64,000 nt of DNA from Alloascoidea hylecoeti (taxonomy: Eukaryota), in assembly GCA_001600815.1 (NCBI GenBank), contig BCKZ01000017.1, positions 1 through 64,000 of the forward strand, given 5' to 3'. Below the pieces are notes generated by a model. It was not told the DNA's origin. It saw nothing but the letters and a program-made list of their open reading frames with translations, and did no database searches. Below, in pieces: positions 21,052-30,936 of this stretch (position 1 is the stretch's first letter; each line of letters opens with the position of its first letter). The position numbers and the translations under genes are program-made.

Positions 21052-23367
21052 TTATGATTTCTTACCCCAGGGTAAACCCTTCCAAAGTGATCTTCTCTTC
21101 TTCCTTTTAGTACTATCGATAGAACTAGAGGAGCTTAATGTAGGATATAATCTACTACTTGATGGAGCAGGAGGACTGCTTTTAGCAACTTTCAATTCAG
21201 GACCAAAAGTTGAAGATTGTTGTTTGATTCTTTTAATTTCAGGCATTTGAATTGAAATTGATGGGTTCGGTGGAATTCCAGGATCATTATCTAAATCACT
21301 ATTTGATGTGTCCTTACCTTTACCTTTACCTTTACCATTTTCATTTCCAAACGAATTAGAATGAAAACTTAAATTAGGAACGGACCCTCTTGTAAGAGGA
21401 GTACGAAACGATGATGAAGATGTTTCTTGTTCAATATTTTCTTGCCTAACAGTTGATAAAGAATGACCATTCGAAGAGGAAATAGGAGGAGTTTTAACAC
21501 GTTCATGATTTAAAGTTGTTGAAATTGAAGGAATCTCAACATCATCGAATCTAAATTGAGTTGTAGAATAACCAGAATATGACATCTGTCTTTTAAAAAT
21601 CTGTGGGCGTGTTGGTATAGCCGCTGAGCTGTGTGTTTGGTAATTATCACCAAGTGGTGAAGGACCAGGTCTACTAGAAACACTCGGAGATCTTGATGAA
21701 GACAGAGAAATTTTTGCAATTTCTTTATCTAAATCATCAAGCAAAGAAGATTGATGGCTTACTCTTTCTTTTTCTTTTGTAAGAGATTCACTTCTAGAAG
21801 AATCCGAAGCTTTTGCTAAAATAGCTTTAAAATGTATCTCATTAAATTTTAAATTAACAGTTCCATGTATAGATTCTGCATTTGATTTTTGATGTGCAAT
21901 ATTTTCATTGCTATTGTCATATAAAATTTTTAACCTTCCTTTTAAAATTTTCATAACCTTAATTTCGAAATTAGCCATAGTATTTCCAGGTACTAATATA
22001 ACAGGAACAGGACTTTTAACTAATAATCTATCAGATAACTTTTTACTGTCATCACTCCTATTAGTCGTAGTGGCAGTATTTTTAGCACCAGTAACAATTA
22101 AAGTAGGCTGATATAACTCGACTCCTTCTTTTAGTGTATCTTTTGTTGAACCAACAATAATATCAACACGTACCGATATTACCAAATTAGGATCAATTAA
22201 ATAAGAAACATAATTAATTATATCTTTTGCAATCGTTGCAATTGATCTTCTTGTTTCAGCGCTTTGAGCACTAGTATTATTATCTGAATCAATTTCATTT
22301 CCGGCGAGATGATGATTTATACTAATATTTGGATCCAAACTTTTAATTCTACTAAGTGGATTTCGATTTCTACCCCTATCACGACTTGGACTTGCTCTGA
22401 TGTTTGAAACCGAACGAGATCTTGGATGATATATATCATCATCATAATTGGAATGTCTTGCGATTCTATTAGCTTCGGATTCAGAAACAGAAGCAGTTAT
22501 AACCAAATAATCACCATTTTTCAAAAATAAGGTAGATAAATAATCCAATGCAACCCAAGTATGCCTACGACCAGAAATATAGCATAGAATACAACGCCGT
22601 TGAAAATTCTTTGCAGTTAATTTATCATATTTCAATATTTCTTGTTTAATTGAACTTTTTGTAGAATTATGAGCAGTATTGGTTTTAACAAGTGGACTTG
22701 GTACATAAACATCATCATCTTGATTGTGATGTTGATTCTCATGTTGGATTAAATTTTTAATTCTATCTCTATCATTATTTTTATGTTTATTTTTATCATT
22801 ATTTCGATTTTGTGGTTTATTTGCATCATCTTTCAATTTTTTTGCTTCTTTCTCTTTTGATATTCTCGCATCTTCTTCCTTCAGTAATTCTTGTATCTTC
22901 AAATTTCTATCTCTTGCGTGTCGATAATAATCTCTATGAGAAGCGGAGACGCTATAACTTCTACTTTTCGTAATTGGTTTTGTGGGATAAATTGTTGTGC
23001 CATCGCTATTTAGTTGGAAGTTATTACCAGTAGGACTTAACGCCCGAGGACTGAGAGTTCCAGAAGATCTTCTGGTTGGGCTGCCCACACGGACAAGAGC
23101 GCTCCTTATATCCATTCGGTCCCGCAAAGTAATGCCATCGTCTTCGTTTGCGTATCTTCCCGGTGAGATGTAATAAGGATCAAAAGTATCAAACGAGATG
23201 CTGTAAGAAAGTTTGCCGTCATTTGTGGTTCGTCTGCGAGCACTGTCTGCGGGTGTCTGTTCCGAGGATGCACCGGCGTGGGATGAATGCGGCCGAGGAT
23301 CCGATTGAGGGTCCACTTGAGGGTCGTGAGGGGAAGGGCTGTCCCGAAGACTGCTAGGGTTTCTCAT
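21052..23367 (-). CDS. Ser-rich protein with a universal-stress-protein (UspA)-like domain
   Basis: Long ORF; first in-frame ATG at 23367 (MRNPSS). Central RRCILCYISGRRHTWVALDY...GDYLVI...PTLIVTG...LLVKSPVPVILV fits a USP fold; flanks are disordered. Confidence 0.7.
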   Translation of the reverse strand: MRNPSSLRDSPSPHDPQVDPQSDPRPHSSHAGASSEQTPADSARRRTTNDGKLSYSISFDTFDPYYISPGRYANEDDGITLRDRMDIRSALVRVGSPTRRSSGTLSPRALSPTGNNFQLNSDGTTIYPTKPITKSRSYSVSASHRDYYRHARDRNLKIQELLKEEDARISKEKEAKKLKDDANKPQNRNNDKNKHKNNDRDRIKNLIQHENQHHNQDDDVYVPSPLVKTNTAHNSTKSSIKQEILKYDKLTAKNFQRRCILCYISGRRHTWVALDYLSTLFLKNGDYLVITASVSESEANRIARHSNYDDDIYHPRSRSVSNIRASPSRDRGRNRNPLSRIKSLDPNISINHHLAGNEIDSDNNTSAQSAETRRSIATIAKDIINYVSYLIDPNLVISVRVDIIVGSTKDTLKEGVELYQPTLIVTGAKNTATTTNRSDDSKKLSDRLLVKSPVPVILVPGNTMANFEIKVMKILKGRLKILYDNSNENIAHQKSNAESIHGTVNLKFNEIHFKAILAKASDSSRSESLTKEKERVSHQSSLLDDLDKEIAKISLSSSRSPSVSSRPGPSPLGDNYQTHSSAAIPTRPQIFKRQMSYSGYSTTQFRFDDVEIPSISTTLNHERVKTPPISSSNGHSLSTVRQENIEQETSSSSFRTPLTRGSVPNLSFHSNSFGNENGKGKGKGKDTSNSDLDNDPGIPPNPSISIQMPEIKRIKQQSSTFGPELKVAKSSPPAPSSSRLYPTLSSSSSIDSTKRKKRRSLWKGLPWGKKS

Positions 23368-23536: not shown

Positions 23537-23608
23537 TGATTGGCTGGATACCGTTGCCACCGCTGAGTCAGCAGATGCTACGTGGCCGAAAACGAATTTT
23601 TATATAAA
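23537..23608 (+). promoter_or_regulatory. HAC1 promoter elements: CCAAT (reverse), TGAGTCA (Gcn4/AP-1 type), TACGTGGC (UPRE-2-like), TATA
   Basis: GATTGG near 23538, TGAGTCA 23564-23570, TACGTGGC 23579-23586 and TATATAAA 23601-23608, all within ~110 bp of the ATG at 23645. Confidence 0.55.
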
Positions 23609-23644
23609 TATTGACTTCTCGTTTTTTTTTACCTCTTAATATTA

Positions 23645-24651
23645 ATGAGTTTCCCAAACATGAATACTACCGGTTTGGCCTCTCCACCACAGGATTCCCC
23701 GTCTCCCTCTTTGTCCCCAGGCCCCAACTCTATAACCGTTACAGTCGGGTCCGGCTCTAATAAACGGAAACAGGTGGTGGAAATGCCGCTACCCCCCGGC
23801 TCTCTGACTCCTAGAAAGCGTGCCAGAACTCAAGATGAAAAGGAGCAACGGCGTATCGAAAGGATAATGAGAAATAGACAGGCGGCTCATGCTTCCCGAG
23901 AAAAGAAACGTAAATATATGGAAAACTTGGAAAACCGTTGCGAGAATTTGACGAAAGAAAATAAATCCTTACAAGACCAGTTAAATGAAACAAAATTAAA
24001 ACAAACGGAGCTCGTAAATCAACATCATACTATGATGGATCAAATTAAACAGCTGACTAGTATTATTCAACAGACTACGGGTCTTAAAATCCCTTCTTTG
24101 GAATTTAAAAATCCCAAGGATAAGTCTCTGCAGTTTGATTCTCCAGCTTCAATATCATTTTCTACTGATGAGGATCAGAAAAGTACTCATGTTTCTTCTA
24201 TACCTGAGGAAGAACAGGTCATCAACGAAATGGAAACTACATCTACTTCAAATTTTGAGAGTAACCCTTCGCGTTATCCAGCAGTGATAATGCAGAAAAC
24301 CTTCCCGCTGCGTCGGCTGTTACTCCAAATGAAGATTTCATTTCTGATAAATTACATTATGACTTGTTGTCTCATGACTCAAGTGATGCCGATTTTGGCA
24401 ATGAAGATCTATCAACAATATTGTTTACACCAGATGAAAATATCCAAGACATCAGCCTTGAATCCCTCAACCCAAAAGAAACTGAAAAATCTAAACCAAC
24501 TTCAGAACATGAAATACCACTTGACCTTGAAGAATCAATCATCTTTAACAGCTCACATCCAATTGACGAATGGTTTCATACAAAGGACGAAACTATATTT
24601 GAAAATATTGAAAATGAAGACAACTTCTGGTTAATAGATGTTACAAACTAA
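23645..24651 (+). CDS. HAC1: UPR bZIP transcription factor Hac1 (spliced form: 23645-24281 + 24308-24651, 326 aa; unspliced ORF 23645-24634, 329 aa)
   Basis: bZIP PRKRARTQDEKEQRRIERIMRNRQAAHASREKKR and the RYPAVIM motif at the Ire1 site. Removing 24282-24307 joins frame 1 to the acidic ORF ending at 24651. Confidence 0.93.
24282..24307 (+). other. Predicted Ire1-cleaved non-spliceosomal intron (26 nt)
   Basis: 5' loop CAG|CAGT on an 8-bp stem (GCGTTATC/GATAATGC). 3' loop CCG|CTGC on an interrupted stem. Basal exon-exon stem TTTGAGAGTAAC (24254-24265)/GTTACTCCAAA (24319-24329). Confidence 0.78.
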
Positions 24652-24838: not shown

Positions 24839-24869
24839 GTCTTGGCGCGTCCCTCAGACTGCGACTGAC
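24839..24869 (+). promoter_or_regulatory. HAC1 3'UTR bipartite element (3'BE)-like stem-loop
   Basis: TGGCGCG (24843-24849) and GCGAC (24861-24865), separated by a small GTC/GAC hairpin and closed by GTC/GAC, form a GC-rich island in an AT-rich 3'UTR. Confidence 0.8.
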
Positions 24870-29898: not shown

Positions 29899-30936
29899 CT
29901 AGCTAAGATTATAACGACTCTTCAAATTAGTCCACCAATCCCTAAACATCCAGCCATCAAAGTCGGTAATTACAGTTGAAGAACCCGAATTCATAATGAA
30001 TTCAGTGACTCCAGTAGGGGTCCAATCATAAAAATCATCCAATGCGTAAGTATGTCCTACTTCATGAAGATAAATGTGAATATTTTCGGTACCAGTTTCA
30101 ATAGCATTTATGAAATATTCTAAACCTATCCTTTGACCCCAATCACCACCAGCTCCACCATTCATACCTTCTGTCAACCAAAGTGAATGATCATAATGTT
30201 GATCTGATCCAGCTGCACAACTGGAATAATCATTATCCGTATGGAAAAACCTACCACAGTTTTCAGAACATTGAGGAATACCATCCGAATCTGTATCAGT
30301 ATAAATATTAAGACCAGTCGTACCACCTTCAACAAGATCCTTTGATTTAACAGCCCAGCCAACAACTGATACTGGGACACTTGTATATGGAAAGCCATCA
30401 TAGCCAATTAACCAATCCATCCATTTAGAATATTGCTTTTTTAAAGCAGCTTCGATTTCTGTTCTATATGTTTTAGTAAGTTTTGTACTATTGGTGTCCC
30501 ATCGAACACAGTAATTTATTTTCCCTTTATGGGCCATAACTTGATCAAATCCATAATTCTTGAATCCGGTGGGATTGGAGTAAGTTGACATTTCATGAGC
30601 CCAAACTTGAGATAGTGGAGTGACAAGTGAGGCGGGTGGATCCCATGTTGACTTGCGGGCTGTGGTGGTTTTGCGGGCTGTGGTGGTCTTGCGGGCTGTG
30701 GTTGTCTTCTTAGCACGAGCAACAAGATTAATACCATCATCAGCGGTCGCAGTGCCACTAGGAGCGTAAACTGTTTCTAAAGTAGATTTATAAACATCAT
30801 TATTACTAACCACAGCTTCTGAAGATGGGAAAGAACAAATTGAAGTAACAGCGACACTGGCAGATTCAGCATTGACTCTGAAGGATAATAGTACTGCTAC
30901 TCCTAAGAGAGTAACCGATCTAAATGAATTCTTCAT
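29899..30936 (-). CDS. Secreted neutral zinc-metallopeptidase-like protein (HExxH)
   Basis: Signal peptide, Ser/Thr linker with TTARK repeats, INYCVRWD, GGAGGDWGQR and HEVGHTYALDDFY. Confidence 0.8.
   Translation of the reverse strand: MKNSFRSVTLLGVAVLLSFRVNAESASVAVTSICSFPSSEAVVSNNDVYKSTLETVYAPSGTATADDGINLVARAKKTTTARKTTTARKTTTARKSTWDPPASLVTPLSQVWAHEMSTYSNPTGFKNYGFDQVMAHKGKINYCVRWDTNSTKLTKTYRTEIEAALKKQYSKWMDWLIGYDGFPYTSVPVSVVGWAVKSKDLVEGGTTGLNIYTDTDSDGIPQCSENCGRFFHTDNDYSSCAAGSDQHYDHSLWLTEGMNGGAGGDWGQRIGLEYFINAIETGTENIHIYLHEVGHTYALDDFYDWTPTGVTEFIMNSGSSTVITDFDGWMFRDWWTNLKSRYNLS

What the first reader, a model, noticed from the sequence alone, without database searches (positions are those of the whole stretch)
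24308..24651. Dual-coding HAC1 3' region: unspliced frame encodes a hydrophobic XBP1u-like segment
Seen: two overlapping frames both stay open for ~110 codons in AT-rich DNA. The spliced frame is acidic (activation-domain-like). The unspliced frame carries LLLQMKISFLINYIMTCCLMTQVMPILAM followed by ~75 basic/Gln-rich residues. Known: XBP1u uses a hydrophobic region plus translational pausing to bring its mRNA to the ER. Inference: unspliced Hac1 here may be a functional membrane-targeting protein; the tail is long enough for the hydrophobic segment to leave the ribosome before termination.
Basis: partly seen in the sequence, partly recalled or inferred. Interest (0 to 1): 0.72.

Follow-up and report, generated by a model that had tools for sequence, protein, structure and literature searches.

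The report
Yeast HAC1 with long unspliced tail
This is a yeast's ordinary ER-stress switch gene (HAC1). Its unspliced form keeps a long, mildly hydrophobic tail, as moulds do and related yeasts mostly do not; whether that tail helps carry the mRNA to the ER, as in animals, is possible but unshown.

Summary
Real: a HAC1 gene with a predicted 26-nt Ire1 intron (24282-24307). After it the spliced frame runs 113 codons and the unspliced frame 107.

- Open frame: longer than synonymous nulls give (P 0.001-0.01), also in a paralogue (P 0.001-0.024).
- Hydrophobic stretch: weak (KD 1.65) and no stronger than the acidic spliced frame produces by itself (P 0.2-0.6).
- Nearest outside homologues stop early: 47 of 47 measurable tails are 3-61 aa.
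- No arrest peptide is evident.
- In 31 filamentous-type loci the same region has 0 stops against 28 expected and excess hydrophobicity in 28 of 31; Lipomyces tails look alike.

So the tail is probably a retained HacA(u)-type feature, a kind already in print. Most likely the 3'BE docks the mRNA and the tail keeps unspliced Hac1 inactive; stall-free co-translational tethering remains possible (about 0.25). A third paralogue lacks both splice site and 3'BE. The scan noted an XBP1u-like fungal HAC1 before, in another genome.

The parts
23579..23584 (+). TACGTG hexamer just upstream of a TATA-like run at 23601; possible Hac1 autoregulation site (motif meaning recalled, not tested)
23645..24634 (+). 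HAC1 unspliced ORF, 329 aa (second in-frame ATG at 23660)
23837..24001 (+). bZIP domain (PF00170)
24259..24265 (+). 5' arm of the extended stem (pairs with 24319-24325, bringing the two exons together)
   Evidence: folds
24274..24290 (+). 5' Ire1 hairpin: 5-bp stem, 7-nt CNG|CNGN loop, predicted cut after G24281; identical in paralogue L002
   Evidence: closing-pair probability 0.94
24282..24307 (+). predicted 26-nt unconventional (Ire1) intron, no in-frame stop
   Evidence: no RNA evidence
24304..24312 (+). 3' Ire1 loop, predicted cut after G24307; stem weak here (closing-pair probability 0.002), position set by alignment to the well-formed hairpin of L002
24308..24651 (+). exon 2, spliced frame: acidic activation-domain-like C-terminus (113 full codons; spliced protein 326 aa)
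24317..24403 (+). unspliced frame: moderately hydrophobic stretch, aa 225-253 (KD 1.65; not above synonymous null)
24404..24634 (+). unspliced frame: 76-aa basic/Gln, acid-free tail; its stop lies 17 nt before the spliced stop
24843..24865 (+). 3' bipartite element (3'BE)-type motif in a 3'UTR stem-loop, 192 nt after the spliced stop
   Evidence: only 3 matches in the 24.8-Mb genome, 2 of them in HAC1 3'UTRs

Best explanation
A short-intron fungal HAC1. SHOWN in sequence: bZIP, twin Ire1 loops with an extended stem, a frameshifting 26-nt intron, an acidic spliced C-terminus, a 3'BE, and an Ire1 with a [+]-box in the same genome. INFERRED: under ER stress the mRNA docks on Ire1 clusters mainly through the 3'BE, and loss of the intron switches on the activation domain. 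The intron is too short to block translation, so unstressed cells probably translate Hac1(u). Its 116-aa frame-shifted tail is a HacA(u)-type tail, as in filamentous ascomycetes and Lipomyces, that this lineage kept while most related yeasts cut it short. Selection keeps the frame open. The tail's most likely job is to keep the unspliced bZIP inactive: no acidic domain, and an exposed hydrophobic, acid-free stretch that favours degradation or loose membrane retention. A stop next to the spliced stop may also spare the precursor from decay. The hydrophobic stretch is mostly the shadow of the acidic frame, so it costs nothing to keep.
For: The 3'BE pattern has 3 matches in the genome, 2 of them in the two intron-bearing HAC1 paralogues. 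The Ire1 linker on G000:C5 has a basic, glycine-spaced stretch flanked by acidic sequence, fitting the [+]-box description in PMC4279078 section 8. Stop avoidance in both paralogues: Fisher-combined P 0.002 with each gene's own codon usage. Tail type: Lipomyces and Pezizomycotina tails of about 200-300 aa with a hydrophobic stretch near the intron; the window tail scores 10.4 bits on their joint profile, reached by 1 of 500 synonymous nulls. Hydrophobicity is not above null here. An uncharged hydrophobic stretch acts as a degron in yeast, and S. cerevisiae Hac1(u) is removed through a C-terminal degron (PMC10493509; PMC8002603). Verticillium Hac1(u)-HA gave no immunoblot band (PMC8071499).
Against: No RNA, protein or half-life data exist for this organism. 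The 3'BE works only on translationally repressed mRNA in S. cerevisiae (PMC4279078), and no block is shown here, so the mRNA may need another route. Filamentous loci have both a 3'BE and a selected hydrophobic stretch (13 of 32 loci with a 3'BE, 12 of them inside the unspliced ORF), so a 3'BE does not exclude peptide targeting. A degron needs only about 10 aa, so it does not explain 107 open codons. The separate profiles score the window tail weakly (P 0.07-0.15), and L002 scores on none. Retention versus re-extension is not resolved: the tree's backbone is open.
Confidence: 0.4

Rival explanations
1. Stall-free co-translational tethering. The hydrophobic stretch leaves the ribosome with about 76 codons still to translate, is caught by SRP or a similar factor, and brings the mRNA to the ER, working alongside the 3'BE.
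For: 105 aa from the start of the stretch to the stop fits the 'about 100 or more' aa proposed for algal and liverwort bZIP60 orthologues that do not stall (PMC11077094 Discussion). XBP1u HR2 is itself only moderately hydrophobic (PMC6624018). In 31 filamentous-type loci: 0 stops against 28.1 expected in the first 60 codons, and KD above null in 28 of 31, against 16 of 31 in the bZIP control. In this AT-rich gene the null is already high (1.64-1.77), so the test has little power.
Against: No hydrophobic excess in either paralogue. The nearest outside homologues lack any such tail. The L002 tail is only 74 aa from the YPA motif and diverged. The loci are kin, not independent. The last-exon-1 control is biased the other way (3 of 31), so codon usage is not uniform along these genes.
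Confidence: 0.25
2. Neutral by-product. An acidic frame read +1 in AT-rich DNA gives I/M/T/K/L-rich text, and the open length is luck or a decaying relic with no present function.
For: Composition and hydropathy are reproduced by synonymous nulls. 29% of comparable +1-frame windows in other window genes reach KD 1.65. Only about 9 codon contexts had to avoid a stop. No tail homologue among 28 candidates. The locus was picked after the fact.
Against: The unselected paralogue also avoids stops (P 0.001-0.024), and 0 of 481 control runs reach 100 codons. There is a weak joint-profile match.
Confidence: 0.28
3. A true XBP1u counterpart: an HR2-like segment plus a C-terminal arrest peptide, as the main route to Ire1.
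For: 26-nt frameshifting intron, a hydrophobic stretch right after it, and a basic tail. Arrest peptides differ in sequence between animals and plants (PMC11077094), so lack of similarity is not proof of absence.
Against: Known stalls lie about 50 aa after the hydrophobic region; here the stop is 76 aa after its end. The tail has no Trp, whereas W249 and W256 frame the XBP1u turn. No match among solved chains at E 10. The C-termini of the two paralogues do not align. The 3'BE and [+]-box are present; per PMC4279078 animals lack the [+]-box and 3'BE-based recruitment.
Confidence: 0.07

Closest known systems
Filamentous-ascomycete hacA/HAC1 (Aspergillus HacA(u), Verticillium Hac1(u))
   Same: Short frameshifting Ire1 intron, unspliced ORF running on through exon 2, a hydrophobic stretch soon after the intron, and a 3'BE in many loci. 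The long conserved unspliced C-terminus is in print (PMC13703316, PMC3197630, PMC7580959; passages read).
   Different: Tail of 116 aa, not 150-300. It ends just before the spliced stop, so the 3'BE is outside the ORF rather than inside it. It lacks the later conserved LLRRLL..SP.LARP block seen in many loci. No significant pairwise homology.
Short-intron HAC1 of Yarrowia, Geotrichum, Sugiyamaella, Blastobotrys, Nadsonia (nearest named homologues)
   Same: Most similar bZIP; same HPA-type splice context; 26-nt intron and 3'BE in the relative L004.
   Different: Their unspliced frames stop after 3-61 aa (median 23); one (L005) stops inside the intron.
Metazoan XBP1u (HR2 plus arrest peptide, SRP targeting)
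   Same: 26-nt intron, dual-coded exon 2, moderately hydrophobic stretch in the unspliced frame.
   Different: No arrest peptide evident; 76 rather than about 52 residues after the stretch; 3'BE and Ire1 [+]-box present.
S. cerevisiae HAC1
   Same: 3'BE in the 3'UTR and Ire1 [+]-box docking.
   Different: No 252-nt intron pairing with the 5'UTR and no in-intron stop with a 10-aa degron.
Plant and algal bZIP60(u)
   Same: Hydrophobic region lost on splicing; non-stalling orthologues have about 100 or more aa after its start, as here (105).
   Different: Per PMC11077094, Arabidopsis bZIP60(u) has a transmembrane domain and an N-terminal activation domain; here the stretch scores as marginal and the acidic domain is in the overlapping frame.

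Membership tests
Fungal HAC1/HacA (Ire1 substrate) | bZIP homologous to Hac1 | tested here: met
Fungal HAC1/HacA (Ire1 substrate) | two 7-nt CNG|CNG loops with stems and an extended stem | tested here: met
   5' hairpin strong; 3' loop present with a weak stem, fixed by the paralogue. Rfam gave only two chance matches.
Fungal HAC1/HacA (Ire1 substrate) | splicing switches to an acidic C-terminus | tested here: met
   in silico only
Fungal HAC1/HacA (Ire1 substrate) | 3'BE in the mRNA and [+]-box in Ire1 | tested here: met
   (3'BE letters recalled, then found in many fetched HAC1 loci)
Fungal HAC1/HacA (Ire1 substrate) | stress-induced splicing seen in RNA | not testable with these tools
   no RNA holder listed
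HacA(u)-type long unspliced tail | unspliced frame open through exon 2 beyond null | tested here: met
   P 0.001-0.01
HacA(u)-type long unspliced tail | sequence homology to filamentous or Lipomyces tails | tested here: inconclusive
   joint profile P 0.002; separate profiles P 0.07 and 0.15; paralogue negative
XBP1u-type targeting module | moderately hydrophobic region in the unspliced frame | tested here: inconclusive
   present (KD 1.65) but equal to null
XBP1u-type targeting module | C-terminal arrest peptide with XBP1u-like residues about 50 aa after the hydrophobic region | tested here: not met
   stop 76 aa after, no Trp, no PDB match, not conserved in the paralogue; an unrelated arrest sequence is not excluded
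XBP1u-type targeting module | tail conserved among orthologues | tested here: not met
   47 of 47 measurable nearest outside homologues have 3-61 aa; no truly close orthologue available
XBP1u-type targeting module | ribosome pausing, SRP binding, ER association needed for splicing | not testable with these tools
   needs experiment

The most novel reading that the evidence does not exclude
Nascent-peptide targeting of the UPR mRNA is not confined to animals and plants. Ascomycete Hac1(u) ancestrally carries a selected HR2-like segment just after the Ire1 intron (filamentous fungi, Lipomyces) that tethers the translating mRNA to the ER without an arrest peptide, alongside the 3'BE. Most budding yeasts lost it; this yeast kept it, and its three paralogues (long tail, shorter tail, no splice site) form a natural series for testing both routes in one cell.
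Probability: 0.25. Interest if true: 0.65.

Novelty: new member of a known kind. Interest (0 to 1): 0.38.

Why it matters
The usual contrast is that yeast brings HAC1 mRNA to Ire1 by an RNA element while animals use the nascent XBP1u peptide. How short-intron fungal mRNAs, which cannot use the intron-5'UTR block, reach Ire1, and what HacA(u) does, are named as open questions in reviews (PMC13703316, PMC7580959). If the tail tethers the mRNA, both routes coexist in fungi, and a budding yeast that has both would make this testable. If not, this is an ordinary HAC1 whose second frame is a relic or a safety catch. The cross-fungal selection signal (0 stops against 28 expected; excess hydrophobicity in 28 of 31) is stronger than anything at this locus alone.

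Tried and rejected
- Rfam at E up to 5: only two chance matches.
- Tail homologues: region search, 1 of 28 candidates scored, and it was the protein itself. Spliced-frame search among longer proteins: 0 of 243 candidates (weak evidence). PDB sequences: 0.
- A true transmembrane helix: rejected, the stretch scores far weaker than a real one (no dedicated TM predictor was available).
- An alternative 3' cut 9 nt downstream (35-nt intron, same frame): considered, less likely because L002 aligns with the 26-nt site.
- Whole-genome duplication as the origin of the three paralogues: no shared neighbours among ORFs of 120 aa or more within about 10 kb on each side, and a paralogue of the upstream neighbour lies on another contig. 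Not supported, not excluded; WGDs in Dipodascales are published (PMC12424943, passages).
- L009 was dropped after because its intron was mis-called (44 nt); its near-duplicate L012 stayed.
- The maximum-likelihood tree was the quick version only.
- Hooks and Griffiths-Jones 2011 is not held; Aragon 2009, Mulder 2004 and Nekrutenko 2006 were seen only as citations.
- No structure or complex prediction was run: the tail has no alignment, and no binding claim is made.

Full report
What is there. The region is exon 2 of a HAC1 gene in an AT-rich budding-yeast genome (lineage inferred from the nearest named homologues: Sugiyamaella, Blastobotrys, Yarrowia, Geotrichum, Nadsonia). ATG 23645 opens 329 codons with a bZIP. 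A 5' hairpin with a 7-nt CNG|CNGN loop (24274-24290) and a 3' loop (24305-24311) sit inside a 7-bp extended stem. Cutting after G24281 and G24307 removes 26 nt and switches to an acidic frame ending at 24651. The 3' stem is weak here, but the paralogue L002 has the same loops with good stems and a 23-nt intron. Splicing is predicted only.

Is the overlap more than chance? Length, yes. Holding the spliced peptide fixed and redrawing synonymous codons, 107 open codons arise with P 0.0013 to 0.0105; no same-shift run in 13 other ORFs of the window reaches 100 (0 of 481, longest 91). The paralogue, not preselected, stays open 63 codons with P 0.001 to 0.024 (combined 0.002). The signal rests on about nine codon contexts, so it is modest. 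Hydrophobicity, no. KD 1.65 equals the null (P 0.22-0.63), because Asp, Asn, His and Tyr codons ending in T give Ile or Met when read +1, and Glu gives Lys or Arg. On a summed insertion scale the stretch is +3.7 against -1.8 for a presumed real TM helix in the window. In AT-rich DNA this test has little power, so it is uninformative rather than negative.

Orthologues. The three HAC1 copies of this genome (two of them represented in the tree by the database proteins P0002 and P0003) form their own clade (SH-aLRT 99, quick tree); no close outside orthologue was found. Of the 49 next-best proteins (P0004-P0052), 47 show the HPA-type motif, and all 47 end 3-61 aa after it (median 23; none at 70 or more). 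These are predicted proteins; DNA confirms early stops for L004 and L005. The tails of the two intron-bearing paralogues align only over 24 aa.

The wider picture runs the other way. Lipomyces and Pezizomycotina proteins have tails of about 200-300 aa with a hydrophobic stretch soon after the intron. Of 83 loci held (80 plus three own), 35 were analysed (19 redundant, 14 with no intron called, 14 without the motif and L003 were left out); L009 was then dropped as mis-called. In the 31 filamentous-type loci (type inferred from 20-26-nt introns and sequence, not from labels) the first 60 codons of exon 2 hold 0 stops against 28.1 expected, and KD exceeds the null median in 28 of 31. The bZIP control gives 46 against 46.5 stops and 16 of 31; the last-exon-1 control gives 55 against 44.8 and 3 of 31. 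These loci are related, and codon usage varies along the gene, so the P values overstate. The window tail scores 10.4 bits on a joint profile of these tails (1 of 500 nulls), but only P 0.07 and 0.15 on the separate profiles, and L002 scores on none.

A 3'BE-type motif lies at 24843-24865 in a stem-loop. The pattern occurs three times in 24.8 Mb, twice in HAC1 3'UTRs. The genome's Ire1 has a basic, glycine-spaced linker stretch fitting the [+]-box. This is the fungal RNA-docking route. It does not exclude peptide targeting: 13 of 32 loci have a 3'BE, 12 of them inside the unspliced ORF, and the S. cerevisiae 3'BE needs translational repression, which a 26-nt intron cannot give by pairing with the 5'UTR (said of C. 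albicans in PMC13703316).

Mechanism. Best reading (0.40): the 3'BE docks the mRNA; the retained tail keeps Hac1(u) inactive and short-lived. Rivals: neutral by-product (0.28); stall-free tethering, for which 105 aa after the start of the stretch matches the geometry proposed for non-stalling bZIP60 orthologues (0.25); a true XBP1u module with an arrest peptide (0.07), for which spacing (76 against about 52 aa), residues and conservation all fail.

What is in print. Overlapping frames and a long conserved HacA(u) tail are known; polysome association and possible functions, including SRP-type targeting, have been raised (PMC7580959, PMC3197630, PMC13703316: passages read). Verticillium Hac1(u) was not detected (PMC8071499, passages). 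PMC11077094: passages and Discussion. PMC4279078: passages and section 8. PMC6624018, PMC8002603, PMC10493509, PMC6627864, PMC4891664, PMC9325865, PMC12424943: passages only. No supplements were read; they may hold relevant alignments. In searches of this partial library, and in the passages read, I found no paper that quantifies a selected hydrophobic segment in fungal Hac1(u); most listed papers were seen only as listings, and subscription papers are missing. An earlier AI note of this scan (e1-7507555) describes an XBP1u-like unspliced HAC1 in an Endogonales fungus; I did not check it.

Verdict. Observation confirmed; interpretation partly supported. A new member of a known kind; interest 0.38, carried mainly by the chance that fungi use both targeting routes and by the three-paralogue series.

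Noticed in passing
L003 (G000:C22:120664-124023, gene on the minus strand): Third HAC1 paralogue, 266 aa, bZIP plus an acidic C-terminus, with no CNG|CNG splice loops and no 3'BE. It may be an Ire1-independent, constitutive or inhibitory Hac1.
   Followed up: partly
L002:1483-2837 (G000:C4): Second intron-bearing paralogue: 23-nt intron, 3'BE, unspliced 367 aa, spliced 443 aa with a long poly-Asn tract; its unspliced frame closes at Leu-Asn repeats.
   Followed up: yes
L092:3163-4414 (G000:C3): A second, degenerate Ire1 kinase/RNase copy split over two frames, with no luminal domain seen upstream; probably a pseudogene. A third short RNase-domain match lies on C45.
   Followed up: partly
filamentous-type loci, e.g. 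L012, L014, L017, L030, L034, L077: The 3'BE lies inside the unspliced ORF (12 of 13 loci with a 3'BE) and coincides with a conserved LLRRLL..SP.LARP block, so that stretch may be constrained as RNA element and as protein.
   Followed up: partly
window 23579-23610: TACGTG hexamer and TATA-like run in a 277-bp intergenic region shared head-to-head with a 771-aa gene (21052-23367, minus strand); possible Hac1 autoregulation and co-regulation (motif meaning recalled).
   Followed up: no
window 21052-23367: 771-aa Ser/Arg-rich protein with no Pfam match above cut-off and a 30%-identical paralogue on G000:C12.
   Followed up: no
window 29899-30936 (minus strand): 345-aa secreted-looking ORF with a short KKTTTAR-type repeat and a HEVGH zinc-protease-like motif; family not tested.
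   Followed up: no
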